From contig CM082579.2 of NCBI GenBank assembly GCA_040954595.2, forward strand, positions 12,215,834 to 12,279,833: a stretch of 64,000 nucleotides of DNA, in the 5' to 3' direction. A program made the position numbers and the translations under genes. Position 1 is the stretch's first letter, and each line of letters starts with the position of its first letter. Source of the stretch: Balanoglossus misakiensis. Its lineage: Eukaryota > Animalia > Hemichordata. This document shows positions 5,125-52,492 of this stretch, piece by piece. The notes beneath the pieces were generated by a model. It saw only the letters and a list, made by a program, of their open reading frames with translations. It did no database searches and was not told where the DNA came from.

Positions 5125-5410
5125 TTAATACATTATTGTGTCATACCCCATCTTTCCTACTAGAACAATTGCTATCAAGGACTGGTCATTCTTACATTTC
5201 TGTAACACCTGCTGGTCTAATTTATTTGGATCGATTTTGCATTCACTAATCTCCTCTTGAACCACTAACGATGTAAATATGCTATCAATTTCGCCATTAC
5301 AGAACCACAGCACTGATTTTATTTCTAGCTGTGAGTGATGGTCTCTGAACTGCGTAGCTTTCTTAAGTGCGTCGTTCCGCTGTGCAGCTATGTCTTGTAG
5401 GTTTTTTCGC
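5125..5410 (-). CDS. Putative alternative terminal exon C of the minus-strand gene (variable module copy 3)
   Basis: Strong acceptor ttttgtttatatttttccAG|g, phase 2. Open frame (x)RKNLQDIAAQ...KSVLWFCNGEIDSIF...QKCKNDQSLIAIVLVGKMGYDTIMY*. Collinear with the exons at 18594-18996 and 22683-23091. AATAAA on the minus strand at 5070-5075. Confidence 0.6.
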
Positions 5411-5993
5411 CTGGAAAAATATAAACAAAAATCAATTTATAATTGGGTCTAGAAAACAGTTTCTGACTCGTCGTGTCAGTAAAGCAGTCAATCAAGAAAG
5501 AATACACTTGCTCATCATCATGCATAAGTCACTGTATGAGATTTGGGCTTCTGGGGTCGGGCCGCCACCTAGCGGTGACATCGACCTTCTGCATTTGTCA
5601 CAGATGTTTTAGTGTGTAAGTTTGTTAGTTTGTTTGATGGTATTGATTGATATAATAAACAAAAATGTTCGGTTATTTATTTATTTATTTATTTACAAAT
5701 ATGGTCACGTTTGTTTGATATCCGTTGGCATGGGAGAATATCACAGAACTTCATGACCTCGCCAGGACGTTTGTGTAGTACTAAAGTTATGTTCATGAGG
5801 GATATGGTGTATCCGGCTTCCGTATTTTCGCGAGCACAGCGAACGAAAATACAGCAAGATAAATTGTATCCACCGTATCACGGGATGGAGTTGGCATATG
5901 GATTTTACTCAATGAACAGTTATTCGCCGCTCAGCTGGTCAGGACCCGTCACATACTAACGCTCACATCCACTCACATATGACGCTTCAGTAA

Positions 5994-6731
5994 GGCTGCA
6001 TTCACAAACGCCTCTGGAGAAGGGGGGGGGGGGGAGGCGAGAGAATTCAATTTTTGTTACCGTTAATTTTCACATGCCCCCCGTACACAACCCGAAATAT
6101 TTTCAAATCCCCCTTCCGAACTGCTACAATTTTGAAATCCCCCCCCTCCATTTTGTTTCACACAGCAAAACACATCACCTATCTATCTTGTAAAAAAAGA
6201 ATAATTATTTTTAATTATGTGTATTCTGTGTTGGCAGACATTCTAAACCGAGAAGTGAAGGGGGTGGGTTTGGGAGGGGGTGTCCCCCTCCCACGTAAGA
6301 AAATTTTATAAATACAGGGCTCAAAGCTGCATTTTAATGAACCCAAAGGCAAATTAACTCAACTACCGGTATGTTGGGGAGGACAAATTTAACCTTCCCT
6401 TCTCAAAGTTAGCATGGGGTGGGGGGTGGGGGGGGGGGCAAGTCCCCTGACCTGGGACACTAGATAAACCAGTCATTGATTGAAAGGTGTTGATGAATGA
6501 TGGGGTGGGTGTGGGAGGGGGTGTCCCCCTCCCACATTAGAAAATTTTGTATTATGAAGGGTTCAAAACTGCATTTTCGTGGACTCAAAATAAATATTTA
6601 GTCCTCAAAGTTTTCAAGTCCCCCCCTTTCAGTCCCTAAATTATTTCAAATCCCCCCTTACATACCCTCATTTTTTTCAAATCCCCCCTCAATTCTCCCG
6701 CCCCCCTCCAGAGGTGTTTGTGAATGCAGCC
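5994..6731. mobile_element. Non-autonomous PIF/Harbinger-like MITE
   Basis: TIRs GGCTGCATTCACAAACGCCTCTGGAG / CTCCAGAGGTGTTTGTGAATGCAGCC, flanked by TAA on both sides (5991-5993, 6732-6734). Confidence 0.8.
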
Positions 6732-6859
6732 TAAAATGTTTTTAAATGAAACTATTCGTATTTTATATCATTAAAACCAGAATTCGTATATAAAGTAACA
6801 AGAACAATAAATAGAACGTCAACATTTGGAGAGTCTTGTAAAATTTATCTTTGAATCGT

Positions 6860-7270: not shown

Positions 7271-7289
7271 CCATTAGTGACACAGTGTT

Positions 7290-9420
7290 TAATTCAAGTC
7301 CCTTCAAGTATACAAGCAGCCCATTTTGCATAATCATTTTGGACATATTTCACATGATATTGCACTTAATACCATGAAGTTGACGAGACACTAGTCACTA
7401 CAGAGCAGGTATCTCCCTCTTTTAAAATGTAAGCTTATGCTGATCCGTCCCATTTACATTTACAAATGTGTTCTTTTTCCAAAGCACCAGAAGGTATACT
7501 TTCATCAGGCATTGAATGCAGGGTTCCCTCTTTTAGCAATTGATCGGAAAGAACTTGGTCGATCTGGTGTATTTACATTACAACCCTAACCACTTCTGTT
7601 GATTGCATCTTTGATAATTCTTTAATATGGGAATGTTATGTATAAGTTCTAAAACTGATGTTAGTACCTGGATTCCGATGCTGTTTCCTGATGCCTTCTT
7701 TGGCTTCCAGGAGTTTTGGATTTAACGCTGCAACTTTCTACATCTGGATTCATATTACGTGGTACTTCCTTGCTTTTCTGGTTCTGGTTCGCGACGTGAG
7801 GATTCCTTCTGTCCCTGTGAACAAAGCATCACAAGGAAGTGTTGCCTTGTTTATATACAACGTTTGATGATGTCATGGTTCAAGCACTGTGACAAATCTA
7901 TATAATAATTTCAAGCCGGAATATACTACTGATAACAGCAAGAAGATTAAGGCACACTGAATGACAGCCCCCCCCCCCTCCTTGCCCAAACTAGACATTA
8001 TACAGATGTTTTTGGTCAAAATAGCCGTATGTTAATATTCACGGATTTTCTTTGGGAGTGTACCTTAACAAGTGATCAACTATCTAGTGATTGGCTGTTA
8101 CATAAGCTGCTGCATTATCGTTTCTTCAATCGATTCAACAAACTCAATTTCGACATGATTAACATTATCAGTTCCACGTTGACATTCTTTGTAAAGATTA
8201 AATAAATGATTATACCACACATCAATAGGATGTCATTTTGAGAGTAACCTTTCTTACTGTCAACATATTTAAGAACATATCAGAAATCTTTAGAACATTT
8301 CAGAAGGCATCAAGCAACTGTAATCTAATACACTCTATGTACATTCTCTTATTGTCCCTGCAGATTTATTTGTAATTGATATGGTTCTATTCGGTAAGGA
8401 ATCTCTAGCTAAAATCAAAAGAGTTTGGACCTCCATCTATCACAAACTTTTGTTGGAAATTTGGTTTGCAGGCTTCCTCACATCAGTATCGACCAGCAGT
8501 GTGACCATCCGCATTTACCTCATTTGCATTACTGTTAGCAGCGATACCTGGTGACATATCCAAATTGCAAATCCGAGAGAAATTATCTGATTCGCTCATG
8601 ACCAAGACATTAAAAGTCAAACAGAGTCTAAACTGCACACGAAACCAAACAATAGTCAATAACACAAGCACCATTTGTAGTTACACAAGTCACATTCCCC
8701 TCTTTGACACCTGGAATTCTTCCAATGACAATATGCAGATTGAAGTGTTTACACATACTTAGAAGTGTTCGGCCAATCTCATTTATAGAATCATATGCGT
8801 GGCATAGAGAAAAGTCGGAGAAGTAGACTGGGTCTTCAATCGGCATATATTTAGTTGAGTCTTTTAAGATGAAGTCGATCTCTCTTCCAGATCTGGCATT
8901 AAAGTCTACAGTGAGAACTAAAACTGTGTTCAGGAGATTGCTATACGTGGCCTCGTTAAATAATGTTCTTCAAATTCTATTTCGTGGACTGATGTAGCAA
9001 CGTTCTAACACAGAGAAAGACACATTTATTCGGAGCATCATGTTACTAATCTTCGTACTTTGTTAATACATTTCTTACAAATATCCACAGAAGCACCTCC
9101 ACTCGGGCGTCCGCTCTAGCTGTATCTTATTGCATCAAAGCAAAAGCGCTTATGATCCTTTAGAAAATTCGTCGCTGTCCCAGCTATACGTGAGATTATT
9201 CACACAGTGAAACAAAATCGAATTACAGAGCTTGCTTTTCAAACCCCTCACATTCCAACATGACAGAGATAACTCGGAGTACTTCAGGCCGTGGCTACAC
9301 CCTTACCTAGGGTCTTCAGAATGCCGAATTCATTACTTCTCGATTTGTCGTGTTCTTTCATTAAGTTTTTGGGTGGTCTTTCTTCCATTTTCGTCAGTAC
9401 ATACTAGTCATAACATCACA
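7290..9420 (-). mobile_element. Decayed non-LTR retrotransposon (APE endonuclease and start of RT, many stops and frameshifts)
   Basis: Minus strand gives CWNVRGL (APE motif I, about 9240-9260) and IGRIPGVKEGNVTCVTTNGACVIDYCLV (APE C-terminal IDY motif, about 8645-8730). Confidence 0.75.
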
Positions 9421-10648: not shown

Positions 10649-12418
10649 CTACGGCGCGCCAAGTGTTTCAAAATTATTTATCATTATTTTATAGAAAATT
10701 GATGTCTTTTAACAAAAAAATACGTACAAAAACACAATAAACTGATTGGTGCTTCAAAAAACAACGAGTGTAAAAAGTAATCCATCGTAGAGTAAACCCC
10801 CCCCCCCCGAAAAAAACAAAAAAACAAAAAAAAAAACACTAACACACACAGAAGAAAATCTCACCTGTTGTCAAAAAAAACCACCAAGCTTACCAAAAAA
10901 ATACGCCCACAAGGCAGTTGTCACAAAAAAGAGGCGCACATTTTTCACGAAAAACGCACACTTCACCCCCACAAAAAATACACACAAAGTATTAAAAAGA
11001 ACACTCTTTGTAAAAAAAAGAGAGACTACAACTTGAAAAAAATGCACACCCCAGAATAAACAACACAGGCAAACATAGAAAAAACACGAACATGTTAGCC
11101 ATAAAAAACGGAGATATTTGCTACCGAAAAAAACCGCACACATGTCACCCCAAAACTAACGGGCCACTTTAAAAAAAACGCAGATGCACTGAGGTTGCAA
11201 AAAATAACCACATTTTAATCCCCCCGAAAAAAAAAACACAGGCAATTTGAAAAAAAAAACAAAAACGAAGAGCAATTTCCAAAAAAAAAAATAGGAACAT
11301 TTGTCACCCAAAAAACAGGCAATTTGTAAAAAACGCAGAGCAATTTGAAAAAAATAGGAACATTTGTCGTCCCCCAAAAAACAGGCAATTTGAAACAAAA
11401 ACACGATATAAAATTTGGAAAAAAAATATATAGGCACATTTGTCACCCAAAATATTCAGGCAAATCCAAGTTGTAAAAAAAATGGTATATTTGTCATCCA
11501 AAAAATATAACAAGCGTATTTAAAAAAAACGAACATTCAGTTGTAAAAATAAATAATAGTCTTCAACAACTTGAAAAAAAAAACGGACGCATTTGAAAGA
11601 ATAGCGTATGCGCATGCGCCGAAAAAAATCTAGTGAGAAATCCTGGGGAATAAATGCGCATGCGCTCCAAAAAAAAAAAAGTGAGAGATTTTGCAAGAGG
11701 AGTCTGGGTGGTGTGTATTCCTTCACGAAGGAATCCCACAATGGCGACCATATATTCACGTCCACCACAGTAACCTTCAGTCGACTCGGATTCTAGTCGA
11801 CTCGCGTTCTATCCGACACATACACATTGCCTGTGTTTTTTTTCGGGGGGATTAAAATGTGGTTATTTTTTGCAACCTCAGTGCATCTGCGTTTTTTAAG
11901 TGGCCCGTTAGTTTTGGGGTGACATGTGTGCGGGTTTTTTTTCGGTAACAAATATCTCCGTTTTTTATGGCTAACATGTTCGTGTTTTTTCTATGTTTGC
12001 CTGTGTTGTTTGTTCTGGGGGTGTGCATTTTTTTCAAGCTGTAGTCTCTTTTTTTTTTTACAAAGAGTGTTCTTTTTAATACTTTGTGTGTATTTTTTGT
12101 GGGGGTGAAGTGTGCGTTTTTCGTGAAAAATGTGCGCCTCTTTTTTTGTCACAAATGAGTGATTTTTTGTGCAACTGCCTTGTGGGCGTATTTTTTTGGT
12201 AAACTTGGTGGTTATTTTTTTACAACAGGTGAGATTTTCTTCCGTGTGTGTTAGTTTTTGTTTTTGTTTTTTTTTACTCCACGATGGATTACTTTTTACA
12301 CTCGTTGTTTTTTGAAGCACCTATCAATTTATTGTGTTTTTGTATGTATTTTTGTTAAAAGACATCAATTTTCTATAAAATAATGATAAATAATTTTGAA
12401 ACACTTGGCGCGCCGTAG
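10649..12418. mobile_element. Foldback element with about 600-bp terminal inverted repeats
   Basis: Ends CTACGGCGCGCCAAGTGTTTCAAAATTATT... / ...GAAACACTTGGCGCGCCGTAG. Arms are about 10649-11245 and 11822-12418. 4-bp direct repeat TCAG at 10645-10648 and 12419-12422. Confidence 0.85.
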
Positions 12419-12443
12419 TCAGCACTTGCGCACGTCAATAAGT

Positions 12444-13811: not shown

Positions 13812-13982
13812 TATAGAAATAATGGACGACGCCCTGACCATTAACGTTTGTTTATGGGCAAAGGCGAGGGGAAAGCCCAAAATTCATGGGTGAAGCTTGC
13901 GAGCCCATGAATTTTGGCTTTCCTCGAGCCCGCGCCCATAAACACACGCTAATGGCCAGGGCGGAGTCGGTTATTTCCATTA
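13812..13982. mobile_element. Palindromic non-autonomous element
   Basis: Imperfect 170-bp hairpin centred on ccaaaattcatggg...cccatgaattttgg. Confidence 0.6.
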
Positions 13983-15895: not shown

Positions 15896-17892
15896 ATGGA
15901 CAAAGTCTCTCTCTCGCTGCACTTTTTTCCATTATTTATGTTCGACACAAGACACCTTTTATGTTATTTGACATGTGGATATACATGTGTAGTGAATCAA
16001 CCTTTGACCACACACAACTTCCATCCCACTTGCAGATACGAGACAATCTGATTAAAATCAGATGTAGGGAACGGCGACTTGGTTATTTTATGATGTCGCC
16101 TCACACTACATCTGACCAACTCTCAATGGAGATCCCGCTGAACTCTACGAGAATTACTGGGAATCTAATCCAATCAGAAGGCGCCTTATAGCAAATGATA
16201 GACAACCCACAATCGCATGACCTGGCCCCTTGCGGTTGTTACCATGGAGCTACCACAGACATATATCCCGGGCGCGAGAGTGGAATCAGCGTGGGGAATG
16301 GTTTCGAGCCAGTTCAGCGTGACGACTGAACCTCTATATTCCACCGGTCAACGAAATGTATAAGACGTGGCAACAAGTCGCAGTAAAATAGAGAATCGAT
16401 TACATTTGTGTAAGGCCGTCCCAGGGAGAGATTCTGTCGCCACGATCGTTTGTATACACCAGAGTGTACCGACCTACTGCACTGAGTTGACTAGCTCTGC
16501 GTGCAGGTCTGCGTGTTCCCGGCGTTACACGGATGTTAGAAGAAGTTAATCGCATCATATTTGGGGTCGGTTGAAGTAGACAGGGAAAGGTTTTTGCTTC
16601 GATAAAATCGAATTTCGACAGAAAAAGCTGCGGTCGGGCGTCCGGGTCCGGACCGCAGACGCACCAGTTTTGTCTATGGGGCCTTATGCAGGGCTGTGGT
16701 GCGTCGGGAACACACAGACCTGAACGCGGAGCAATGATGACTTGACATTCCTTAGCCGAAGTTAGCGTTCTTTTTAAAAATCTGTCACATAAATTGTTTT
16801 GGGATACATGGCAGTGAAATTTGGTTTATTTTTTATAAACTTTTACATGAAGTACGTCATTTTCCCGACTGGCAGCATGACTACGAGGGCGAACATGACG
16901 ACTTGTTAGGAGAGTTTATAAATGATCAACGACAGTTCATCATTTGTATATGGCTACAGCTCGACGTTTCACTGCTCTGCGAAAACCCCTCGTATACGAT
17001 GACGCCAAACAAAGAAAGATATCATGGGATTACATGTAATTGTTCACAAGAGAAAGCCAATCTTTCGTATTCTGTGCGATACTCGAAGTGAACAACAACA
17101 TTTCTCCCATCTCCCAGTGCAATTCTTTAGTCAGCATAACACGCAATCTGATTGGCCGGATCGGAACGCGAGAGTTCAGCGGGATCTCCATTGAGAGTTG
17201 GTCAGATGTAGTGTGAGGCGACAGCATAAAAAAACCAAGTCGCCGTTCCCTACATCTGATTTTAATCAGATTGGATACGAGAGTAAAACATCTCTTATAT
17301 ATACGAGAGTAAAAAAATCACCAAAATAAATAAACGGTCTCTACAGTCTATTCGAGCATGAGCTTCAATTGTCACCAATGTGTACATGCGCAAGTGTGTG
17401 TTACCGTCTGGAACTGGTAAACGTAAACGTACGTGGTCGCCCACAACTCACTGCATCGTGGTAGCTGAGTGTGCGCTCGCGCGTATATTCACTGAGTATG
17501 TGTAGCGGTATCCCAAGAACTGAAGATAGGACGTGAATTGTGTAGCCCTATATTCAGATTCTGCGATTTGTTCTAAAGCACGTATATGTGAAATCAAAGC
17601 GAGGCTAGGAACGTCAGCTCCATGGAATTCTAAAATAATCGACTATTACTGATTTTCAAGTCGGACTTCACTCGGTGATTTTACATTGTTTGCCACTGAG
17701 CGGGGTTCAAAATGGCGGCTTGTACAAATCGCGCATACGGCCAGATGTATTAAATTCACTAATCTTAGTGTAATTGGCAAAACATAGTTCATGGTAATCT
17801 TCAAGCCATGGATGGTCATCATATGAGTCACTTATATTGATTCGGAGTAGGTATTTAATGGATTTTTGACATAAAAGAGAGACTTTGTCCAT
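15896..17892. mobile_element. Longer member of the (A)TGGACAAAGTCTCTCT MITE family (non-autonomous Kolobok-like), interrupted by a nested element
   Basis: Left end ATGGACAAAGTCTCTCTCTCGC, right end AGAGACTTTGTCCAT|TTAA. Left arm 15896-16043 plus 17274-17340 is collinear with 30499-30665. Confidence 0.6.
16044..17273. mobile_element. Non-autonomous TIR transposon with 9-bp TSD (Mutator-like)
   Basis: About 105-bp near-identical TIRs starting CAATCTGATTAAAATCAGATGTAGGGAACGGCGACTTGG. TSD GATACGAGA at 16035-16043 and 17274-17282. Confidence 0.85.
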
Positions 17893-18593
17893 TTAAAACA
17901 AACAGAGCCGCCAGTTGTCCCTCAGACCGTTGTACCACATTATACATGGGCACAGTCTCATAGATAATGCCCTCTCGACCACAATTTTATGCCGTGTTCT
18001 AAATATGAATTTGTTCAAAACTCTTGAACTTACCGGGTATACAATGTTTTCTACAGGTTTTACTTATTGTGAACCAACTTCGATAAAAGACACATGTAGC
18101 TGTTTTCGCCCTTTTCCAAATTGCTCATACGTAACTATTTCAGTAATTGGCTTGAATAAAGGTATTCGAGTCTATCGAAAAATTGCCTGTCAGCCAACAA
18201 TTCTCTCTTAGATTCACAGTTAAAAAATCTACTTGGTTATACATGCATGATTTACATTGATGAAAAGTGGTACAGCGTTTACAGTGATCAAACTGGAAGT
18301 GAAACATTTGCCAGTCTCTTAATTACATGCGATTTTTGAAACTGTTGCTATGAATAGTATGGACCTTGCTGTGCTCACGCGTGAGAGGATATCCGGGCGC
18401 TTGAAGAGAGGCTATTTGTGATATATTATCAAACTTATGGTATATTTTTATTCTTTGTTAGAGTTGCACTCTTAAAATTAACATAGTAAGATGTGTTCTA
18501 CAGGACATCAGCGCCATATTTAAATATCCTAGCATCAAATACAAGCTAACCATTTACTGGAACCGTTTTGGACTTTTGTTTTAATTGATATTA

Positions 18594-18996
18594 TTAGAAT
18601 ATTGATGTAAAAGACTTCCACAACCTTCTTGGAATACGTGTGAGCTTCGTCAAATTTGAATCACTTTCAGAAATTGGATAAAGAACTACCAACCATGTAC
18701 CGTTTTTTAAAATGTAAGCTAACAACGATGGGTCTTGTTTACATTTTTTCATGTCCTCTCGGTTCCAGATATAATCAGGAATATCATTATCGGGCGTTTG
18801 AGGGATTCCTTCCTCACTTAATTGCTTGGACAACGCTTGGTTGATCTCACTTTCATGTGTAAATCCTACAACTCTGACCACTTGCATTGCGTTCTCCTTC
18901 TGTAATTTGTTGATACGTGATCTGATAATGTCGAGCCGTTCTTTTGGGAGCATTGCCTGGCCATTGTTCACTGTGACGGGAAGGTCTTTACTATCT
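18594..18996 (-). CDS. Putative alternative terminal exon B of the minus-strand gene (variable module copy 2)
   Basis: Acceptor tgctttgttcgcAG|a, phase 2. Frame DSKDLPVTVNNGQ...VVRVVGFTHESEINQAL...KKCKQDPSLLAYILKNGTW...SIF*. AATAAA on the minus strand at 18447-18452. Confidence 0.65.
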
Positions 18997-20927
18997 CTGC
19001 GAACAAAGCATCACACGGAATATTAGTCTAGTTTAATATGGTCGCTGATATCATAGTTCAAGCACAGACATTGTTAAACAAAATTTTCATATCGATTGTG
19101 CATTCAGATGTGTGATAATGTGAAATAGACAAAATCAGATAGCGAGCCACTAAATATCTGTTAAAGAATGTCAATGGAAATTTTTTTTAAATGGTCGCCA
19201 ATACTAATAATCTCATCCACAAGATAACAACTGAAAAACACTAATGTTAATTCAGATTAAAATATTTGAAACAATAAACAGTGGAAAGCGTGATTTGCAA
19301 AGTATTTATGGTTACTAAACTAGATACGGGGTAAATACAGGATCAAAAGCACAATCTAGCGTGTAAATTCTATGATTTTTGATCCTCTCCTACCGGTCTT
19401 AAAGGGTAAGTTCTGACAAGCCTAAAACCACATTGCATTGGTTCTTACTTAAGTCTTCCTCACTTCTGATTATGTTTGAGGCAAAAATTGTGATGTGCAA
19501 TGCATGTGTCTGTGAAATAGGCGCATAAAAATTGTATACCAGGGCAAAATGAAAAAACCCCTGTGCAACCATTTGGCAACTGCATGCTGGGAAAAGTATG
19601 CGGATGATGACCTTAAAAAGTTTCGGGGTTCCGTGCAGTGCTAGGGGTCCCATAACTAGGGGGCCTTTTAGAAACTTTTCACTATGGCCTACTGTGAACT
19701 ATATATGAAACGAAGACATCTGAAACAGACGGCTATGTACGCCATAAATATTAATGTTGCATTAACGATAGTGAACGAGACACAAACTTTATACTGACAA
19801 GGTCTTCTACATAAAATGACGGCTCTGCAAATAATGGTTCGATTTCAAGGACGACAACATCGACTGTAGGTATTCGTTTTTAGAGAAGGAAGACATGTTA
19901 ATTCTGTTGTATTCCTGTTTACGACCACGATCACTCACCAACTGCATCTAAAACCTACCTTACAATAAAATGTGGCTGTCGAACGTTAGTCCCAACTATA
20001 ACGTCGATACACAAGACGATAAAGATGTTTACTATGTGGCCTACTGGCCTCGTTTATCGCGCTGTCTTTGAAGGGCGTCCTCTTTTTGAAAAAGGCGTAC
20101 CGTGTACTCAACGTTGGAGTCCGTCGAGTACCCGAGTGACGTCAACAGGATGGCTACGCCCATGAGATGTTGATCCCAAAAGTTGCAGCTTGGAATTTCG
20201 CGTCTCGTTACGGACGTTGGCATGTTTGAACCACGCGGAGTTTCGTCATGTGTTTCAGAGAAGACACAATTCGTGTGTGAACATTTCGCGTGTAATTTCC
20301 GACGCGTGTTCAAGAGTTCAGAGCACCTCAACGGTAAGGTTTTAATTATGACCATACAGAAAGTTCTATTTGTGAACACTTACTTTTAGCTGATTACAGT
20401 TTTGATAGCTTGAAGCTGATATTTTCATATGTTTCGCAGTGTGTATTTGATATTGATGTTGCAGTGTATCTGTATTTTTTATATCTTTGGCCGCCGTAGT
20501 TTCGAAGAATGACGTCATACTTCTTGCGTGATTCTCGCAATTTTCATTAATTTTGACATCGTTATCTTTACTTCCAGTTTACGAAGCTCTAAAAAGTTTA
20601 GGGTCGGCGGGCTAAAATTAGTTTAGGTAGGGTATTTGGAACAGCACATATTTTTTATTTGGCCTGAAGCCAACGACAAACAAGAACCATGTGCCCCAGC
20701 TCGAGAAATTTATTTGGTTGAGTTTCCGTACGGTCTGTAAAACTCCCGCGACGAGAAGCCGATGGTTACATGACCATTATGTTTTAATCGCTTTATAAGC
20801 TTTGAGTTACCAGTAGACTAACTGGACTTTGCAAAGATAAGAAAGGCATTCTGGGATAGGGTTTCAACGAAAAGCAACACCCTCACGCGCAATCGCAGCG
20901 CTATGACAACCGTCCATCACAGTTTTT

Positions 20928-21640
20928 TACAAATTGAACTAAATTATACCATACCGGTTTTCTGCCCCTTTTTTCGGTTCTTCATCACTTAGTAATGACC
21001 AGGTTTGGTCTGTCGCAACTACATCTGTTGGAGAACTGAAAAAAGTATAGGAAACATTTATAAAACGTTAACAATTATCTTATGATAGGGAGGGGTAACA
21101 CTTAACAAAAGTCTTGTTTTGCCCTGTTCCATGTTTCAGATTCTTTCACTAATCAAGTGCAACAAGCGATCTACAAATTGAACTAAATTATACCATACCG
21201 GTTTTCTGCCCCTTTTTTCGGTTCTTCATCACTTAGTAATGTAGAGGTTTGGTCTGTCGCAACTACATCTGTTGGAGAACTGAAAAAATATAGGAAACAT
21301 TTCTAAAACGTTAACAATTATCTTATGATAGGGAGGGGTAACACTTAACAAAAGTATGTTTTGACATGTTCCATGTTTGACATTTTCACACAAAAACACT
21401 AATCAAGTAAAACAAGCGATCTACAAATTGTACTAAATTATACCATACCAGCGTCCAGTACTGTTTTTCGGTGATTCACCACTAGGCAATGCATAAATAT
21501 GATCTGTTGCTGCCATATCTGTTGCAGAACTGAAAAATATCGAAAAAAATAAAACGTTACACATTATCTTATGATAAAGAATGGTTAACACTTAAAGTCT
21601 GTTTTGTCACGTTCCATGTTTGATATTCTCACACAAAAAC
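20928..21640. repeat. Tandem repeat, about 3 units of 244-250 bp
   Basis: TACAAATTG(A/T)ACTAAATTATACCATACC recurs at 20928, 21172 and 21422, with collinear downstream sequence. Confidence 0.9.
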
Positions 21641-22682: not shown

Positions 22683-23091
22683 TTACCATGAAATTGAGGT
22701 GCGGTAAAATGAAAAATATACAAACCATTCTTCATCTTTGCATGATGGACAAGGCTTTATTGTCTCCACATCTATGGTCCAGCAATCACCATCCTTACAT
22801 ACAAACACAATATTGCTTCCAGATCTGTCATTTTTGCACTCCTTGTATTCTTTGAGTTCAATAATGTACGTTTTCAAATTTGTTGAATGTTGAAATAAAT
22901 TCTTGTTTTGTAACATTTCGATAAATTTCTTATCTACTTGTCCTTTGCTATCAAAAGCATGGATAGCAACAACTTTCTTTGCTTTTTCTTTTTCATTTAT
23001 CCAAAACTTTATCAGCTCGTGAGTGTGTGTGTCACAATAATTTTTCAATGAAGTGGCGTTTTCATCGGAACTACTGTCTGATTTCAGATCA
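22683..23091 (-). CDS. Exon A (variable module copy 1) of the minus-strand gene, terminal or internal
   Basis: Acceptor tttattttgtttcAG|t is phase 2, matching the phase-2 donor of exon 2 (AT+T=Ile). Frame DLKSDSS...VVAIHAFDSKGQVDKKF...KECKNDRSGSNIVFVCKDG...ISW*. A possible donor TG|GTAATT lies at 22687/22686. Confidence 0.75.
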
Positions 23092-26135: not shown

Positions 26136-27539
26136 ATTTTGGCTGTCATTTCCGGAAAGTGTTCCTATATTTAGTGGAGGTCAGGATTCTGAAGTATTGA
26201 AACTGTTGTTAAACCTGTCGGCCATAGAGAAATGGTGACATTTTTAGTGCTAATAAAATTTGCCCGCTTGTATGCGATTGCCTTGGAAGATATCCTGCGT
26301 ACCATTGAAAAATAAAATGGTTGGCATGGTTTTTCAAGATAGACACTTTAAACCTACACAGCAATTAATGCGGGCATTGCAAGACAGCGTTATTTACCGG
26401 CGTCTTGCTATCATGAGGCCTCGTGACATGGGTTTTAAAGCACGTACGTTACAGTAAGAAGGAAGCTGGATTGTTGGAGAAAACCAGGTAAGTATAGAAT
26501 CACCTACAGTTCTCTCGTGGGGCTCTGCAATCCAACCAATCCAAAAAAAACAAAAAAAAACAAAAAAACGGATGAACAAAGACACGCACATGGTTAACTT
26601 AATTTGTTGCAAGTACCATTGATTTGGCATGATTTCCAGAAGGCTCCAAATAGTTCATTTTTTTTTAGAAAATACGACACACCGACCTTGTCTACCGGTA
26701 TTGTCCGATCGGTGAAGTTTCAGAGATTTATCTACGTGAAATGACCAGGGAGATGTACGGAAAATTGTGACGTACGGAAGCTTGCCACTGACTGTAATGC
26801 GATATTTTTGATTGACGGTATTGGAGAGTCGTTCTATCTTCCTAAAAAAATCCTGTTTTACAACGTAATTTTACTGTGAGTTAGTGTCGTTCATTGATTG
26901 AATGTTCAAACAGTGTGTGTACCCGGCAGCGATCAGGCTTTCTCGGCTGTGGCCACTCCATGGCAACGATAGATTGTTTACGCATTACATAAAAAGTCCA
27001 CTTTTCAATTTTGCTGACAGACTGTTTATCGGAAGCGGTGACATTCTAGTTTTATTATTGCTGATAATTTTAATTTGCATATACTAATTTTGAGTAAAAG
27101 TTGTTGAATTTGCAGAGACATAATTCGACCATCGGGAGGATCAGCTCGCATTTATAAATGTGTTGATTTTCGCGGGGATTTGCGTGTTTATTTTGGTATA
27201 GACGATCTTGGTAGCGATGACATCTATACCCAACTAATGTAAAAAGACACTCAGTCGTTTGATAGGCATACTTGTCCTTTTTTATGAGCTGGCTCTCGAT
27301 AATAAATAAATATAAATATAAAATAGATAGTGAACACTTTCTTTGAAAATTCACGTAACGCCTAGTTCGGACCTGTTGAGTGGTGCAAACATCCGAAAAC
27401 AGATGAGTGTAGGATATGTGTCTGGTCACGAGGTACAGTAAGAGGGGGAGGAAACCTGGTAAACAAAAACACCAAGTACAGCTTGCCCTAGTGCTACTGA
27501 CAATAGTGAACAGCAAAAGATTCATTACCACGCAATGAA

Positions 27540-28370
27540 GTACTGTGGTAGAACAGAAAATAACGTGTATAAACTCTTAACGGAGACTTAGAACAGAACA
27601 AACTCTCTTTGGTCACGTTCCATGTTATATATTCTCACACATAAACATAATTTTAAGAATGAAAAATTCTTATCAAACTATCCCCATATGATAAGCAATT
27701 TCACATTAATAATTTTTACAGTAAACACATTGTTTAGCAAACTGATGATGATTAATGTCACATTGCTTTGATAAAAAGTTAGTATAGAATAAACACCATT
27801 CAGAAATTCATCTTTCACAATTATTACAAACTGTACTTAATTATACCATACCTGCTTTCCTCACTTTTATTCACTGGTTCATTTCTAGGCGATGGGGGCA
27901 CTGTGGTAGAACTGAAAAAAATTCACAAAAGTGTATAAACTGTTAAGGGGGGGGGGGGTTTAATAGGACTTAGAAAAAATATATTTTGTCGCGTACCATG
28001 TTATATATTCTGACTCATAAACAATAATTTTAAGAAATAAAACAATCTCATCAAACTAAGGTATATGATGAGCAATTTCACATTAATAATTTTTATACTA
28101 AAAACATTTTTTTAACAAACTGAAGCTTATGATGATTAATGTCACATTGGTTTGATAAAAAAGTTAGTATAGAATAAACACCATTCAGAAATTCATCTAT
28201 CACAATTATTACAAACTGTACTTAATTATACCATACCTGCTTTCCTCACTGTTATTCACTGGTTCATTTCTAGGCGATGGGGGCACTGTGGTAGAACTGA
28301 ACAAATACGCAAAAGTGTATAAACTGTTAAGGAAGGGTAAATCCCATTTATATATTTTCACACATTAACA
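27540..28370. repeat. Tandem repeat with units of about 360-385 bp, related to the 20928-21640 array
   Basis: ACTGTGGTAGAAC at 27542, 27900 and 28285. TACAAACTGTACTTAATTATACCATACC at about 27825 and 28210. Confidence 0.85.
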
Positions 28371-30225: not shown

Positions 30226-30469
30226 ATAGAACATTTGTCCGAGTGAGATATGTACATATCAACCTGGCAGCGGTCCTTCAGAAATGACCTAAGACACTCC
30301 CTATGGATATCTTCAGGGGTATTGTTCCATGAAAACACATGTCCCTTTGGTCCTTCAATATATGCTCTCCCAAACTGTGATGATATCTTGAAGCGTGCCC
30401 ATTGTGACAAAAGCTGTGACTTGTCAGTATAGTTATCATCATGTGCTATAACAACAATGACTCTGTCAT
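30226..30469 (-). CDS. Exon 2 of the uncharacterised minus-strand gene (second half of alpha/beta domain)
   Basis: Acceptor tttttttttAG|at (phase 1; A+AT=Asn), donor AT|GTAAGT (phase 2). Open frame DRVIVVIAHDDNYTDKSQLLSQWARFKISSQFGRAYIEGPKGHVFSWNNTPEDIHRECLRSFL...DKCS continues exon 1 in phase. Confidence 0.8.
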
Positions 30470-30498
30470 CTAAAAAAAAACGTTGGATGTTTATTTAA

Positions 30499-36623: not shown

Positions 36624-37090
36624 CTGAATTTGACTACAAACAAATGGTAGCAAGAATGCAGTTAGCAGCGCTTGACCATAACAATAATGTAGGGCGCAAG
36701 CAGGCCGTCATCAAGAAAAGCCGGCGAAACACAGGTAGCAAGGGGGAGTTGCGCTTAAGAACTGTGTTTCACAAAGGCAGTGGTAAATGGATTGCACGTC
36801 CAATCCTCGAGAAAAAAAGTTATGGATATCTTTCCGATATGTTAGAAAGAGTTCTGTCCAGAAAAATGAATGGGGAAAAGTCATCTGTTGAGGCTGATAA
36901 GCGAAAACTTCCCCGAAATGTGGCCAAGGTTCCTCAGCCAAAGAAACAAGATTTAGTGAAAAACCACATCACACGATTTGGTTGAAATTATTTGTGGTAT
37001 TTTAATCGATGTAAAATTGAAAATGTCAGATGAGGCCTTAGTGTCTTTACCAATGGAAATACATCGTCATTGTAAATAAAAGTGTAAATA

Positions 37091-38006
37091 TTATTCAAAA
37101 CTCGTGGCTTCTTCTACTTCTTTGTAACCGGTGTACTTGCTACCGTCTTCTGGAAACCGTTTCCGTATCATGGAGACAACACAAGCAGGCAGTACACGTC
37201 TGTTATTCTTGCCCAGTCTTTCGCCTCGATGCGCCCATAAAATAAACTGTCTGTATTCCATCAAACGGGATTGCCTGAAAATGAGTAAGAGACGTTCATG
37301 AACTTAAAAAAAACACTAACGCGTAAATTGTACGGATAACATTGAGCTTCGACGCTTAAAATGTACAAATAGGGCCATTCTTTTTGACAGACTTGCCCGA
37401 CAAAAGAGTTCACAAAACTGCCGACCCGCCCCTATGGCTTCGCAAACTGACACACACACAACAACATCAGATGTTTCGTAAAATAAACGTGACAGGATAT
37501 TTAGTATCAGAAAAAAGTTAAATCGATAGCACACAAAGTTATTCGAACTAATTATGTCCATTTGAAGTCATCAACAAAGCTTACCTGTTGGTTAGAGTGT
37601 CGGGTGAGCGGCCAACACGCCGCTTATAAAGGTGGAATTGCACATAAGCAGTGGCAAGGATGGCAGGTTCCAAGCAAACCAAATCTAAATCAGGATGTTC
37701 TGTGACACACTTTCTCGTTTCCAATTGTTCTGAAATAACATCGATCTCGTGACAACAGCGACATTCCCTTGCAGTTGGCATGATCGGACAACGACTGCAA
37801 CCACACCAAGTAAGCGTTGACAAACGGGACACGTCGGAGATCGGAAGTGGAAAATCACAGTGGGGTGAATCAGTATCGTCGGAACTGCATGAACTATCAC
37901 TTTCTGCACTGGAGTCAGTTTCGTTATCTGAAAATTCAGTCGCTTGATCATGGAAGGGGATCTCTGGCTCAAAGTTGTAACCTACTACCCGAGAATATGT
38001 TGCCAT
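37091..38006 (-). CDS. KolX protein (P2X7 cytoplasmic-ballast-like Cys-rich domain), 201 aa, exons 38006-37585 and 37274-37091
   Basis: MATYSRVVGYNFEP..WCGCSRCPIMPTARECRCCHE..CVTEHPDLDLVCL..TNR|QSRLMEYRQFILWAHRGERLGKNNRRVLPACVVSMIRKRFPEDGSKYTGY. Phase-2 intron AG|GTAAGC...tttcAG|G; no stops. Confidence 0.9.
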
Positions 38007-40187
38007 GTTAGCGTCGTCGGTCGTTTGAGTGCAGGCGTGCATGAGCTTGTTTTGAACTTGCTTATACGCCTCAGCAGCGCTATCGCGCTAGCAGACGACG
38101 CCACCACGAGTTGCTGACGTCATCACTTCCGGGTTCGCGTAGTTTTTGGATGGCTGTAGCTCTGTTATGCGTAAGTGAAAGTGAATGAAACCAACGTTTT
38201 TCACAGTACTTTTTAATATGATTTCGCAGAATTAGCTATAAAACGGAAAACAACGTTCCACTTTAAAGATACAGAACGAAACATTGAAACTGGACACTTT
38301 GAAGACAAGACATTGGGACAAGAAAGAAAAAGAAAAATTTTACTGGAAGCTGAACTGTCGTACAATGATTCTGAAATGGCTTTCTGGGGGTATTCATGGC
38401 AGGCTAGTCTGAAAACCCGGACCGAGACGAGACTAGATGAGACAAAAAGATTCCCCATCTTACTGATAGAAAAGTTACTCTTTTTTTTCCGCATGGGAAA
38501 CATCAGTATCAATGCCACGAAAAAAAAAAACTTTTTTACAATAAATAAAGTTCTTGTTAATTATTACTACATTTTCAGCTTAGTGACTTTGATTCCATGG
38601 TCAAATGTACAATTAGGTATTCGGACAACCGGTGAATATCAGGTTGTCTTCGACATAGTATGTTGCCTCATACGATTGCAACTGATACCACCTGCACATG
38701 CTGAGTGGAAGGACCATCAACATTTCACTAACGGGTGGGTCGGGTATGAAGACAGAACGTGAATGAATTCAATTTTGCACATCACAATTGAAACCTAATC
38801 TGCCAAAAACATTCCAAAATGTTCATTTCACTGACATCTATCTTGATACCCATGTCTCAACATGGATATTTCTTACAGTTTGAGCATGGTCAACGTACCC
38901 CAAAAATGGTTTGTTCTCTCACAAATAGCGAACACATCTTTTCACCAGGACTGACCCACAACAGTATTTAAATAATAGCACATGATAGCGAGGGCAATAT
39001 CGCGATTTGACGCCTGCACGAGGGATGGTACCATCAATATTATGGTCAGAGGGCACCAGCCCGACAGCAGGCTTCAAATCGTGATGTTGCCCGAGCATCA
39101 TGTGTTATTAATTTTATTACGCCGAACATTTTAACGTGCATACACTGAAGCATAGAAGAACTTAGGGTTGCGTCCATGTCGTACGTTGCTGAGAATGTAA
39201 AATGTCTCGATCTCCAAAGAACTATACCTACTTCGAACTCAGATAATTTTGAGGATACTGTGCTGTTGGTTGCGATTTTGGTGTATATCTTGCCTGTTTG
39301 CAGTAAAATATCGTCCAGTTTAATAGGTATGAAGCCCGTGTGTCGTTTTGAAGGCCATTGATGCGGGAGTTGACTGATCGTGGAGGAAGCCATTGGACGA
39401 CAGTTTGTTACGCGCAGAAGTCGGGCGCAGAACCCCAAGACAATCCAATATCAACAGGGCTTTATCAACTCTTGCCATGTTATATCACTTTTTTTCTCTA
39501 TGTAACGTGAGCGCGTCTCAGCTAATCACGGATACGACATAATACGTGAGGTGTAATAATTTGTTCTATTACGCGAAACATCCAAGTGAATTGGAGTGGA
39601 CCTTGTTTTATCCTGGTAAACCACTCTCAAAAGACTTACGATGTGGTTTCAGAAATAAAATGGTGTCACTCAACGTATATTACGGGACTGGGAGCTTTGC
39701 GTGAGAAGTTGATCAACAGCGATTAGTTTTGGGTCTCTACCTTTGAAACCGGTGAAATCTCCCGTGAACACACCCGTAACAAGCTCATCGAAATTAACGA
39801 GAATTGAATTTGAAAAATGGATAGACCTTCTACACTATACCCACAAAGAAATAGTGGCTCAACTCATGCAATACGGCGCAATTAACTCAGTCTGCGTACG
39901 GTGAAGTGTGTGGGGGCTATTCGTAACTACATGTATTAAGCTGGCGGTCCTTGGACATGTACATGTAATCGGTGTACCTAAGTACGTACACACAGACCTG
40001 TACGCAGGGCTAGGTGTACCTAGGATTTGTAGTCAACATCGTTTTCCCATGGTTCGACCGAAGAAAATTTCAACTCTTGGGTTTTATCTTTCGTTCGCGT
40101 GTTGTGCTTCAGTAGAAAAGACATGAAGATTTAACTTATATATACTATAAAATAATGGAAAGGGGAATCACACACATTTTGCCGTGC

Positions 40188-46000: not shown

Positions 46001-46295
46001 GCGCTTGTACAGATGCTTTAATGGTATTTTATTGATTGTAAGGTAGCTAAAAACGATCAATCAGTAGCTTAGACAATCTCCAGATTTCGCGTCAAACGAG
46101 CGCTCACGCTATCTTCAGGCCTATACCCCACTGACACATAGATCTCTTTACATGTGTCAGCTGAGTGGGGTTTAGGCCTGAACATAGCATGAGCGCTCGT
46201 ATGGACGTGAAATCGGGAGATCGTCTAAGCTACTGTTTTATCGTTTGAGCTACCTTACAATCAATAAAATACAAATAAAGCATTTGTACAAGCCC
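46001..46295. mobile_element. About 295-bp palindromic element
   Basis: gcttgtaca.atgcttta..gtattttattgattgtaaggtagct... is mirrored by ...agctaccttacaatcaataaaatac..taaagcatttgtacaagc; centre about 46145. Confidence 0.8.
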
Positions 46296-48778: not shown

Positions 48779-51700
48779 CTGCGTACCACAGCTTGAGCGC
48801 GATTCTCATTATCATAACACCGCAAAGCATGCTGAGAAATGTCAGCACTCATTTACCTCTATTTTGGCGGCCAAGAACCAAGGGTACGTGGCGAGATTTT
48901 AATCCAAATTTTACCATTTTTTTGTGAGTACATGACAGATTTTGTTATCTTTGTGAAAAGTATTGAAATAAAGCAATAAGAGAATCAAAGAGATGAATTC
49001 AGTAGATTTGTGAAAAATAAAAATAACAGAGTTACCTTTGACCCCTTCTATTTTAGCCTTCAGAGGCATATACCGACTTTGATTTTTTGTGCCTTTTCAT
49101 CCAAACAATCAATGGACGAGAAAAAATGTGGTATATACTCTATTCCATTAGAACTTTATGGGAAACTATCGTATATTATCATCAACGACTGTATAGGGAC
49201 TGTGGGATCTCCCCAATTCTTGTTGTTATTAAAATTGACGATTTTGTAGAAAATACCGTGATTTTGCCGTGTCGTAGTAAAAAAAAATCCAGACGCAAAT
49301 GTCATGCAGAGTGTTTATTTTAATCACTCACCACCTCTTATGCTCATTTTTTTGTCCAGAACATCTTGCCCGTAAATTTCACACATACAGCAGGTTCTTT
49401 CTGGCCAACAATGTTTTTGGGTCAAAATGCAGTGATTTGTTTGATTGTTTTTGCCTTTTCATCCACAGATTGAAAATGAATCAAACTCGAATTTCTGGGG
49501 TCATAAGTACTTGATTGGTATCATACGTACCTATTTTTGCTTGTGCAAAGCCTTTTTAAAAATATCCAGTCACATGAAGTGAGGCGTAAAATGTAGTTTG
49601 TTGTTATTTTGGTTATGAATGTTTCTGGGCCTTCAATCAATAATTTATCAGATACGACCATCCGCAGTGCCCAAAATACTTACGATACATGTTGTTATTT
49701 CATAATCACACCGATCGAACACAGATACCCCTTGTGGATGGGGTTAGCCTAATTCAAGATTCACGTTTCAAGTTTCAAGATTCACGTTTCAAGTTTCACG
49801 TTTCACGTTCCACGGCCCAAGATTCAACAGTGGACTTGGATTCACGATTCACTTCCAACACTAAACTTATATTCTGATTCAGATTCGAGTTTTGTCTAAT
49901 ATGTTTATGCTGCCGTAACCAGGGTGCGTACGATTGTTTATTGCGTTAGGGTTAGGGTTAATTCTGATATAATTGATAGGTTTAGGGTCCGGGTATATTT
50001 TACAACCGATAACTAAAGCAAAAGGACTAATTCCTATATTCGGAATCAAGTGAATGCTATGTAGACGGCGAAAGGACGTGACAGGCTTCTATTTTCCTGT
50101 ATGGGTGGGGATTGTCTTCTCGTGATTCGAACCTGGCCGATTATCGTTCAACGGTCATGCATTGACAGTTACTGCCACGGTACGGCCGTCACCGGCGCCG
50201 CGCTGGCTTCATATCCACCGTACGATGTTGATGATCGTGGCATAGACTCTCATTCGTTTTTGTGGAACTCACACGGGTGACTCCCGTCTAGGTAATGTGT
50301 TGCTGCAACCACGGCAAACAACTCCTTTTCCCATAGTGGTATTACACAGAAAAGCACGAAAACACCGTATGACACCTGTGAGCATCGCTAAAGCTGGTCT
50401 ACCTGACCGGTTCCTCTTGTGACGTCACGTCACGTGACCAAAATGCAGCAAATCTGTACTCAGACTTTTCAGGACGGGGTGGATTTTGAAGCATTTTATG
50501 AGAACAAAACAAATATTATAGAAATCGATACCCGAAAAATATAGTCACTTTTGGAAAATAGTACATTTCTTTTGAACATTTTTTAACCTTCTGATAAGAT
50601 TTAAAAAGGCAAGATATGCTCTTTAATGAGTGATAATAGACACGCCGACTTTGCGCGCTCAGTCTGAAGACTGTTCAGCGTGAGCAAATCTAGACAACAA
50701 AGTTGTAAAACTGCTACAATTTATCACATGACCTGACCGGCAGGAAATTCACTGTGAAATGATTGGTTGGGTACCCATGATATTTGGCGCGCTTTTTTGA
50801 TGACAATTCATAAAGTTGGTACCTGTTATTTGGTTGGAGGAGGAAGCGTACTTGACAGCTGAAAACAACATCTTTGGAAAAGCGTTGATAACACGTGGGG
50901 TAATTTGTTTAATATGTCAATCTAAGTTTTTCAACAAGCGTCATTATTTTCCATTGGTTGTTTCACGGTGTCAATCAACGCGCCACGGAGAAACCTGACA
51001 TTAGCCAACCCTCATAGGAAAGCCGTCATAAAGAGTCGGTGACGAGGAAAGCGTCAGGACTAAACCAGATATCGTCCCGGTAGGATCTATTTGTCGAGTA
51101 CCATTTATGTTTACATCATAGTTGGGCGTCCTTGAAAAAGTGGACGCCCAGATCAGAATGGGTAAGTCGCCGAACATAGACACTCCAGGTAACTGGAGTG
51201 CCTTGTCCAACAATGATTCGAGAACGGTCATTCCTTCGAACGTGATTTAAGGACCGGCTGATTTCTATTTATAGCCTTGGTAGATGTATCGAGCATATTG
51301 TTTTCATGCAGTGTCCGACCATCTGACTGGTTGGACGAAAGTTGTCGAAGATTAAATAGTATACGTCTGTAGACTTTCTCACATCACCTCTCGCCGCCTA
51401 CGCAGATTGTTCGTCTGATTGTATATATGCACTCAATGGTCTAGTGAAGCCCAACCTGCAAGTCGGTGAACCCGGACCAAGCGGTATTTCTCCTTTGCTA
51501 AACGGTTGAGGGCGCGTCAGTACAGAGCTTTGCAGCGAAGCATGGGCTGTAAATGTACGCCCTCCCTTTTTTATTTTGCCCCACTCAATTTAATACCCAA
51601 GTTAATTGTTAAACTCTCGGGCTACTGAACGAGAAATTGCCCCATGAGGGCGCTGTGAGATTACGCCTTTAAGCACAATAATGAAAATGAAAATATAGAT

Positions 51701-52194
51701 GCAACATACCTTGCCTTTTAATTAATATCATACTAGTAAGACATAGCATAATATGCGTAACTCATTTTTTGACAAAGCGACTAAGTGTTAAGTAAACCCA
51801 CTGAGTTTTCCATTAAAATGACGTTGATGACTCAGCTAAACCTTTGCAGTCTGTTTTATGTATATACAGTATGTTTTAGTAAACAGTTAATTTAAGAAAA
51901 GATCCTTAATATAAAAACAAAAACAAATAAAGCACTCATACATAGTCAAATAGCACAAGTGAATGAATATATTTTCCCTGGATAAGAGTGCAATGGAAAA
52001 TTGGGTAAAAGCAATTTGTAATTAACGTACGAAATCTTGATGCCGCAATTCATCACGTCATGTTAAACGGAAGTGTCTGGGTGTTTTTCACGGAAAATGA
52101 AGTATTATACTTTAAAACTTGTCCGGGATTGCAGGGTGTTGTACCTGCAGAGGTGAATTACGGGATATAAAATATAAGAAAAAAATGGACTCAC

Positions 52195-52492
52195 TTGTAA
52201 CTTTCTGTAATGCAGAGTAAATCTTTGTATACCCAATCCCTGCAGTTGGTTCGTTAATTGAAATTCTGGATTCACGTGCGTGAACGACGAATATTGCCAT
52301 GCTCGGTTTATTCCTCTCTTCAACCATGAGAATCTCTTGGCTTTTTTGGTCTATCCCGTCCAAGGGGAAAAATTCTAGCTCTACACTGTAGTTGCCCCAA
52401 TGATCTTCCGGAAACAATGTAGTTTTCACCTTTTCAAGGTCGACGAGTTTATCACAGTTCAGCATGATGATTCTTGACGGAGCGGAGGCCAT
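52195..52492 (-). CDS. Exon 1 of uncharacterised gene (alpha/beta, possibly TIR/flavodoxin-like domain)
   Basis: acaATGG start. MASAPSRIIMLNCDKLVDL...SMAIFVVHARESRISINEPTAGIGYTKIYSALQKVT. Donor A|GTGAGT, phase 1. Confidence 0.8.

What the first reader, a model, noticed from the sequence alone, without database searches (positions are those of the whole stretch)
5125..52492. One constant domain spliceable to three paralogous variable terminal exons: candidate diversified gene
Seen: exon 2 ends in phase 2 (AT|GTAAGT, 30226). Three downstream exons, at 23091, 18996 and 5410, all have phase-2 acceptors, giving ATT, ATA and ATG with exon 2. Each runs to its own stop and has a downstream AATAAA. 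They are collinear homologs: A 'VVAIHAFDSKGQVDKKF..KECKNDRSGSNIVFV', B 'VVRVVGFTHESEINQAL..KKCKQDPSLLAYIL', C 'KSVLWFCNGEIDSIF..QKCKNDQSLIAIVLV'. The F-to-CK[NQ]DxS spacing is 39, 40 and 36 aa. Splicing A directly to B's first acceptor creates TGA, which favours mutually exclusive use; A to C would stay in frame (TGG). Inference: alternative last exons give one N-terminal domain three divergent C-terminal modules. I do not recognise the module as a named domain.
Basis: partly seen in the sequence, partly recalled or inferred. Interest (0 to 1): 0.85.

Follow-up and report, generated by a model that had tools for sequence, protein, structure and literature searches.

The report
Swappable tail cassettes on pseudo-GTPase gene
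This gene, likely from an acorn worm, has one conserved front domain predicted to fold like a switched-off GTPase, followed by three intact and one decayed copy of an unnamed tail domain, so it likely makes several proteins with the same front and different tails, a layout known from a few fly genes but seen here in an unstudied protein family whose tail has no close match among solved structures.

Summary
In detail: junction codons, stops and the homology of A, B and C check out. Still, B ends in a stop, C has no front exons of its own, and A's tail resembles a relative's true C-terminus. So alternative 3' cassettes remain the best reading (0.55), with an A+B chain as main rival. Closest relatives are acorn-worm proteins. 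The front domain is predicted to have a GTPase-like fold without G motifs; the module folds confidently with no solved match at Z 5 or more. No RNA run was listed, so splicing is untested. The scan reported a similar last-exon layout in another gene of this genome, but not this family. New variant of a known kind.

The parts
52653..52700 (-). Likely non-coding first exon (3' end only; 5' limit unknown, 52700 is arbitrary), donor CAGG|GTAAGT
   Evidence: Sequence shows the donor and an AG acceptor 5 nt before the ATG; inferred
52195..52497 (-). Exon 1: ATG at 52492, 99 codons, first half of the constant domain; phase-1 donor
   Evidence: 87 phmmer hits, best real ones acorn-worm proteins at 45-52% identity; same intron position and phase in six coral genomic loci printed
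30226..30469 (-). Exon 2 (244 nt, phase 1 to 2): second half of the constant domain
   Evidence: Matches residues about 100-166 of the exon-1 relatives, E down to 1e-21; family profile E 9e-24
28237..28296 (-). Linker micro-exon L1 (60 nt, phase 2-2)
   Evidence: Splice-site scan; homologous to L2-L5 with shared acceptor and GTATGG donor
27852..27911 (-). Linker micro-exon L2 (60 nt, phase 2-2), tandem copy of L1 (59 of 60 nt identical)
27520..27581 (-). Degenerate sixth linker copy that has lost its acceptor AG
   Evidence: nhmmer E 0.002 with the linker profile, and the sequence shown
22683..23091 (-). Module exon A (135 codons to its stop); candidate phase-2 donors at 22686 (TG|GTAATT) and 22725 (TG|GTTTGT) could make it internal
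   Evidence: tail resembles the Saccoglossus C-terminus
21449..21529 (-). Linker micro-exon L3 (81 nt, phase 2-2)
21199..21279 (-). Linker micro-exon L4 (81 nt, phase 2-2)
20955..21035 (-). Linker micro-exon L5 (81 nt, phase 2-2), 78 of 81 nt identical to L4
18594..18996 (-). Module exon B (133 codons), terminal; only weak phase-2 GT sites near its end
   Evidence: AlphaFold model of its core pLDDT 91.7
7366..7814 (-). Decayed module exon D, a duplicate of B: shared acceptor intron (79 nt, 75%), 43% protein identity, early stop, frame change and two further stops
5125..5410 (-). Module exon C (94 codons), terminal, strong acceptor, AATAAA 50 nt after the stop; no linker exon found before it

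Best explanation
This is one gene with a constant two-exon front domain and a tandem array of 3' cassettes that are likely used as alternative ends: linkers L1-L2 plus module A, linkers L3-L5 plus module B, a dead copy D, and module C. Shown: every linker and module acceptor is phase 2, so all listed joins except A-to-B and L3-to-B keep the frame; the cassettes arose by tandem duplication of linker-plus-module or module-only segments. Inferred: the end used is set by competition between 3' splice sites and each cassette's own poly(A) signal, and linker skipping tunes spacer length. A two-module A+B form may be made as an extra isoform. Predicted: the front domain has a GTPase-like fold without G motifs and works as a scaffold; the fast-evolving 90-residue module is the variable binding part; the tails hold the protein at a membrane. 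A role in immune or conflict-type recognition is the likeliest function but rests on context only (about 0.3).
For: B has a stop and only weak phase-2 GT sites near its end, and the window has a single exon 1 and exon 2, so C can be translated with this front only by skipping B. A, B and C are only 17-22% identical yet open for 135, 133 and 94 codons (chance 0.0006, 0.0007, 0.006 per frame), whereas D, closer to B at 43%, has decayed. A's last 24 residues align without gaps to the true C-terminus of Saccoglossus XP_006824037 (10 of 3000 open-frame controls, 6 of 1500 T-rich controls) and not to the internal linker of Glandiceps XP_077984307 (post hoc, one of four comparisons). Only 1.15 kb separates A's stop from L3, too little for another front half. 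All five linkers keep splice sites and have no indels within pairs, while flanks have gaps. Coral RefSeq isoforms skip 13-18-residue linker pieces, and Oculina LOC144663044 X1 and X3 join one first exon to two different bodies. Front domain: all top 50 of 48,161 chains are P-loop NTPases, 49 of them GTPase entries, Z 8.6-10.7, best rmsd 3.7 over 143 residues; 0 of 71 family domains have the G1 or G4 motif. 8 of 29 named relatives end in Cys at position -4 and 5 more have a hydrophobic tail segment.
Against: E1-E2-L1-L2-A-L3-L4-L5-B is one open frame of 570 residues through the 22686 donor, and that donor scores in the top 5% of GT sites, near exon 2's own (1.7 against 2.5). Two modules in one chain occur in 16 of 76 full-length relatives (redundant set; two of the 16 repeat the whole unit), in Glandiceps XP_077984279 and in 3 of 11 intronless coral contigs. 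None of the database isoform sets aligned swaps only the module after a shared front domain. The part of A's tail beyond the weak donor is 47.5% T and its match is not significant against T-rich controls (p 0.07). A coral locus shows a duplicated terminal exon that simply decayed (L057), as D did. The poly(A) signals are individually weak. PurE, a non-GTPase, ties with many GTPases at Z 9.1.
Confidence: 0.55

Rival explanations
1. A is an internal exon. The main product chains front domain, linkers, A, linkers and B (570 residues), as in the two-module Glandiceps protein. C is a minor alternative end or an orphan.
For: Open frame through either candidate donor of A; the stop of A sits inside the donor itself (TG|G TAA), the pattern of a read-through phase-2 intron; two-module chains recur in the family.
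Against: A's tail matches a terminal tail better than an internal linker. Linkers before B are equally expected if a linker-plus-module segment was duplicated as an alternative cassette; a 143-nt intron piece is shared upstream of A and of B. This reading still leaves B against C as alternative ends if C is expressed.
Confidence: 0.23
2. Only one cassette is really used. The others are leftovers of partial tandem duplications, or of neighbours that lost their front exons, on their way to decay like D.
For: D is such a leftover; a coral locus has a decayed duplicate of its terminal exon; relatives sit in clusters of whole-gene duplicates (three Glandiceps genes on a contig of the same length, several Stylophora genes on one 212-kb contig).
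Against: A, B and C are as far from each other as from other species' modules yet all are open and keep the family profile; L3-L5 keep their splice sites and frame, with pN 0.30 below pS 0.43 for L3 against L4 (only 26 codons).
Confidence: 0.15
3. B (with L3-L5) or C belongs to a separate transcript with its own unrelated first exon or internal promoter, giving module-only proteins.
For: 13 kb separates B from C; the splice-site scan lists several unassigned short open candidates there.
Against: No copy of exon 1 or 2; the candidates I could identify are repeats or transposon pieces; all module-bearing relatives examined were found through the front domain, so module-only proteins were not surveyed.
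Confidence: 0.05
4. Separate question, on the front domain: it is not a pseudo-GTPase but a flavodoxin-like or TIR-like enzyme or ligand-binding domain with its own active site.
For: The model has five strands with no extra antiparallel strand between helix 1 and helix 2, a layout shared with TIR, receiver and PurE folds (own knowledge); polar motifs after strands 1 and 3 (N-C/S-D; H/N-A-x-E-S-R-L-S-I-N) are each kept in 64 of 71 domains, more than a dead enzyme needs; PurE reaches Z 9.1.
Against: GTPase domains fill the top of both VIA searches, best Z 10.7-11.1, close to the Z 12.2 reported between the AAGAB pseudoGTPase and HRas (PMC12490416, passages).
Confidence: 0.25

Closest known systems
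Drosophila 3' variable regions: PGRP-LC, CG42235 and pipe (PMC6191721, passages read)
   Same: Common 5' exons followed by tandem duplicated multi-exon 3' cassettes, each able to end the transcript.
   Different: Those are shown by RT-PCR and RNA-seq and are chosen through docking-site/selector pairing; here use is untested and no such pairing stood out. The domains are unrelated.
Clusters of 3'-terminal exons used through multiple poly(A) sites (Kassiopeia, PMC3923563, passages read)
   Same: Neighbouring similar exons with the same frame and their own ends; the paper counts tens per genome (34 in C. elegans, 41 in Arabidopsis).
   Different: Here the units include linker micro-exons, and one module may also be internal. 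The paper warns that tandem gene duplicates mimic such clusters.
Class i pseudoGTPases: p190RhoGAP pG1/pG2, CENP-M, AAGAB (PMC5593906 and PMC12490416, passages read)
   Same: GTPase-like fold with degraded G motifs; adaptor role proposed. CENP-M and the IRGQ entry appear among the fold matches.
   Different: No sequence similarity was found; the fold is predicted, not solved; nucleotide binding is untested; the family has its own conserved motifs.
Unnamed family of Glandiceps XP_077984307/279/289, Saccoglossus XP_006824037, Ptychodera, Branchiostoma, Nematostella, corals and one Physarum transcript
   Same: Same front domain, same first intron, low-complexity spacer, one or two C-terminal modules.
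   Different: Relatives mostly diversify by whole-gene tandem copies or by chaining modules; one front domain with several separately terminated intact cassettes was not seen in the database proteins or in the 79 metagenome loci examined.
Marine-invertebrate conflict domains with GT4 and TRIM fusions (PMC8195603, passages read)
   Same: Lineage-specific expansion in cnidarians, amphioxus and hemichordates; the front domain is fused to GT4-conflict in Oculina models and to RING/B-box in Ptychodera.
   Different: The passages read concern TRADD-N, STAND and AP-GTPase domains, not this one; the fusions are gene models and may join neighbours.

Membership tests
3' variable region with alternative tandem cassettes (PGRP-LC/CG42235/pipe type) | Shared 5' exons followed by tandem homologous 3' cassettes with compatible phase | tested here: met
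3' variable region with alternative tandem cassettes (PGRP-LC/CG42235/pipe type) | Each cassette has its own stop and 3' end | tested here: inconclusive
   Stops present; AATAAA individually weak; A also has a usable donor
3' variable region with alternative tandem cassettes (PGRP-LC/CG42235/pipe type) | Transcripts join the shared exons to one cassette at a time | not testable with these tools
   No RNA run could be obtained for this DNA
3' variable region with alternative tandem cassettes (PGRP-LC/CG42235/pipe type) | Competing docking-site/selector pairing (found in some such genes only) | tested here: inconclusive
   18 donor-acceptor pairs against 15 controls each: 2 of 18 beat all controls, no common docking site; only 300 and 400 nt were scanned and no sister genomes were available
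Active P-loop GTPase | G1 GxxxxGK[ST] and G4 [NT]KxD motifs | tested here: not met
   0 of 71 family domains and not the window's own domain
Class i pseudoGTPase | GTPase fold | tested here: met
   On a predicted model of the Glandiceps relative (pLDDT above 84 in every block to residue 190): Z 10.7, rmsd 3.7, 143 aligned; moderate Z, PurE close behind
Class i pseudoGTPase | One or more G motifs lacking | tested here: met
   definition from PMC5593906
Class i pseudoGTPase | No nucleotide binding or hydrolysis | not testable with these tools
   Needs a binding assay
TIR / flavodoxin-like domain | Best structural match to TIR or related five-stranded parallel folds | tested here: inconclusive
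   Only 50 rows are shown per search; PurE at Z 9.1; Pfam gave no shared family for 43 members
Any named domain, for the module | Profile or fold match | tested here: inconclusive
   Best Z 4.3 of 48,161 chains; a weak match does not prove a new fold

The most novel reading that the evidence does not exclude
An acorn-worm recognition gene built like a receptor with constant and variable parts: one conserved pseudo-GTPase scaffold is spliced to a choice of rapidly diverging modules of a new fold, alone or chained, with spacer length set by skippable micro-exons. It would belong to an old, unnamed membrane-tethered family (slime mould, cnidarians, amphioxus, acorn worms) that diversifies by birth and death of 3' cassettes for immune-type recognition.
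Probability: 0.2. Interest if true: 0.75.

Novelty: new variant of a known kind. Interest (0 to 1): 0.5.

Why it matters
The splicing layout is a known kind, but it marks a protein family with two undescribed domains: a conserved domain predicted to be a pseudo-GTPase and a 90-residue module with a confident model and no close solved structure. If the cassettes are alternative ends, one locus gives a natural set of specificity variants on one scaffold, which makes the module's ligand and the scaffold's partner easy to test. The locus also shows each stage of cassette evolution side by side: recent linker duplication, old intact modules and a dead copy.

Tried and rejected
No whole genome is held for this window, so cassettes beyond it could not be sought. 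RNA runs for 18400-23200: none was listed; this is no evidence either way, and read laying could not be used. A word-based search with exon 1 for longer proteins found nothing, though phmmer later found 87 (its top hit P0001 and P0038 are repeat artefacts and were dropped). Pfam: no family for exons 1, A or C, and only a chance-level row for B; none shared by the 43 aligned members. PDB sequence searches: nothing under E 0.1. ESM Atlas: no usable hit for B; unnamed animal clusters for the front domain, and DUF4630 on 18% of one cluster at score 0.87, a lead only. Foldseek gave no E under 0.001 for either model; the module's best VIA rows (HK97-type capsids, Z 4.3) are at background level. TIR domains were not among the rows shown for the front domain. 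The module tree is an unresolved star apart from B+D and the two Glandiceps first modules. Docking/selector pairing: nothing consistent. A 14-bp stem between A's end and the intron before L3 was rejected, since L1 scores the same and 14% of controls pair as well by energy. Positive selection on linkers was rejected: L3 and L4 differ more in the exon (54 of 81) than in the flanks (160 of 184; p 0.0003), but pN is below pS. Complex prediction of front domain with module: no answer, score 0.00, not evidence. Homology of coral and amphioxus modules to the acorn-worm module is weak (hhalign P 0.05 and 0.0004-0.01; 0 of 60 column shuffles for two pairs, 20 of 60 for coral against amphioxus), so it is treated as likely, not shown. 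Literature: six family locus IDs gave 0 papers in main texts; (listings and abstract starts only) showed nothing on this family. Supplementary tables were not searched and could list these loci as expressed genes.
Full report
Observation. A, B and C are homologous beyond chance: local z 9.9, 5.5 and 3.4 against 2000 shuffles, though global A-C is not significant. A profile made only from four modules of other species scores them 35.7, 42.1 and 21.2 bits, above all 500 shuffles each. The AATAAA signals are weak one by one: 29%, 15% and 6% of random positions have one as near.

A fourth module, D (7814-7366), is a decayed duplicate of B with the same acceptor intron, 43% identity, stops and a frame change. 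A splice-site scan (weights recalled from textbook consensus) then showed five short phase 2-2 exons: L1 and L2 (60 nt) between exon 2 and A, and L3, L4 and L5 (81 nt) between A and B. They are homologous, share acceptor and GTATGG donor, and a sixth copy has lost its AG. They code low-complexity spacers. No linker copy was found before D or C. With them, exon 1-exon 2-L1-L2-A-L3-L4-L5-B is one open frame of 570 residues, through either of two candidate donors at A's end. All other listed joins are in frame except L3-to-B.

Relatives. phmmer with exon 1 gave 87 hits. The closest real ones are from Glandiceps and Saccoglossus, then amphioxus, Ptychodera, anemones and corals, plus one Physarum transcript; so the window is likely an acorn worm. 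These proteins continue with an exon-2-like segment, a spacer, and in the acorn worms an A/B/C-like module. The first intron sits at the same codon and phase in coral genomic loci, and 11 intronless coral contigs run through it. Among 76 full-length relatives (a redundant set with isoforms), 48 have one module, 16 two and 12 none detected. Glandiceps XP_077984279 chains two modules behind one front domain. Coral RefSeq isoforms skip short linker pieces, and two isoforms of Oculina LOC144663044 join one first exon to different bodies; none of the three isoform sets aligned swaps the module alone. Coral loci mostly show whole-gene tandem copies, and one (L057) has a decayed duplicate of its last exon. 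The link between coral, amphioxus and acorn-worm modules is collinear but weak.

Alternative ends or a chain? For alternative ends: B has a stop and only weak phase-2 GT sites near its end; the window has one exon 1 and one exon 2, so C needs B to be skipped; A, B and C are 17-22% identical yet all open, while the younger D has died. A's tail matches the true C-terminus of the Saccoglossus protein (10 of 3000 and 6 of 1500 controls), not an internal linker, but this was noticed after the fact, is one of four comparisons, and the part beyond the weak donor is not significant against T-rich controls. Linkers before B are expected under both readings, because duplicating a linker-plus-module segment gives exactly this order; a 143-nt intron piece shared upstream of A and of B fits such a duplication. 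For the chain: the open frame, a fair donor at 22686 (1.7, top 5% of GT sites) and two-module relatives. I put alternative cassettes at 0.55, the A+B chain as main product at 0.23, leftovers at 0.15 and separate transcripts at 0.05. In the first two readings B and C remain alternative ends if C is expressed. No RNA test was possible.

The domains. An AlphaFold model of the Glandiceps relative is confident over its first 190 residues. Of 48,161 chains, the top 50 matches are P-loop NTPases, 49 of them GTPase entries (best Z 10.7, rmsd 3.7, 143 aligned); a second look gave the same order with PurE at Z 9.1. None of 71 family domains has the G1 or G4 motif, while two other motifs are kept in 64 of 71. 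By the definition in PMC5593906 (passages) this works like a pseudoGTPase; nucleotide binding is untested, and a flavodoxin- or TIR-like enzyme is not excluded (0.25). Module B folds with pLDDT 91.7 from 11 sequences into four helices and three strands. No solved chain reaches Z 5 (best 4.3). That makes a new fold possible, not proven. Of 29 named relatives, 8 end with Cys at position -4 and 5 more have a hydrophobic tail segment; A and B end in aromatic tails without Cys. Membrane attachment is inferred.

Mechanism. Shown: exon order, phases, homology, duplication and decay. Inferred: cassette choice by competing acceptors and poly(A) sites, and spacer tuning by linker skipping. Predicted: scaffold fold and module fold. 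Speculative: immune-type recognition, from tandem expansion in marine invertebrates, a front domain near 50% identical between species against about 20% for the module, fusions to GT4-conflict and RING/B-box domains in gene models (context in PMC8195603, passages), and a head-to-head P-loop GTPase gene next door.

Comparison and novelty. Tandem 3' cassettes behind shared exons are known from Drosophila PGRP-LC, CG42235 and pipe (PMC6191721, passages) and are catalogued by the tens in other genomes (PMC3923563, passages). I found no common docking site here. The family has no Pfam entry among those scanned, and six of its locus IDs returned 0 papers in the library's main texts; supplements were not searched. 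The scan's earlier notes describe a similar last-exon layout in TNF-like genes of this genome (unchecked) and nothing like this family. Verdict: a real feature, a new variant of a known kind, interest 0.5.

Noticed in passing
window 53469-53918 and 60401-60620, + strand: A neighbouring gene lies head to head with this one, about 0.8 kb away. A coiled-coil exon is followed by an exon with an intact P-loop (GPTGAGKS) and a DSRG motif. It resembles IFI44-like GTPases (name recalled); the only database hint was a weak match to Irgb10 (E 1.6).
   Followed up: partly
window 31471-38087: Intron 1 holds, on the + strand, a THAP plus Mutator-like transposase element interrupted by a LINE reverse transcriptase ORF (34475-36406), and a Cys-rich ORF on the - strand at 37581-38087 with no Pfam match.
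   Followed up: partly
window 21449-21529 against 21199-21279: Linker exons L3 and L4 differ more (54 of 81 identical) than their flanking introns (160 of 184), at synonymous and non-synonymous sites alike; intron conservation or conversion is unexplained.
   Followed up: partly
window 10649-12418: A 600-nt inverted repeat (89% identical arms) lies between B and D; other foldback or MITE-like elements lie at 30495-30845, 16044-17273, 13813-13980 and 46003-46293.
   Followed up: no
window 24135-24326 and 19081-19242: A 143-nt plus 24-nt segment (73% and 96% identical) lies upstream of both A and B in the same orientation; either a trace of the cassette duplication or a dispersed repeat.
   Followed up: partly
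proteins P0210, P0100, P0206 (Oculina LOC144663044): RefSeq isoforms mix two first exons with two gene bodies in a tandem cluster: combinatorial splicing between neighbours, or a model artefact.
   Followed up: partly
protein P0048 (Physarum polycephalum transcript): The front domain occurs outside animals (family profile E 4e-63), followed by a Pro/Ser spacer and a segment that resembles the module by eye only.
   Followed up: partly
proteins P0111, P0229, P0078: The front domain is fused to a GT4-conflict glycosyltransferase in Oculina models and to RING/B-box domains in a Ptychodera TRIM-like model.
   Followed up: partly
L057 3077-4166: A coral two-module last exon with a frame break is followed directly by a decayed copy of itself.
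   Followed up: partly
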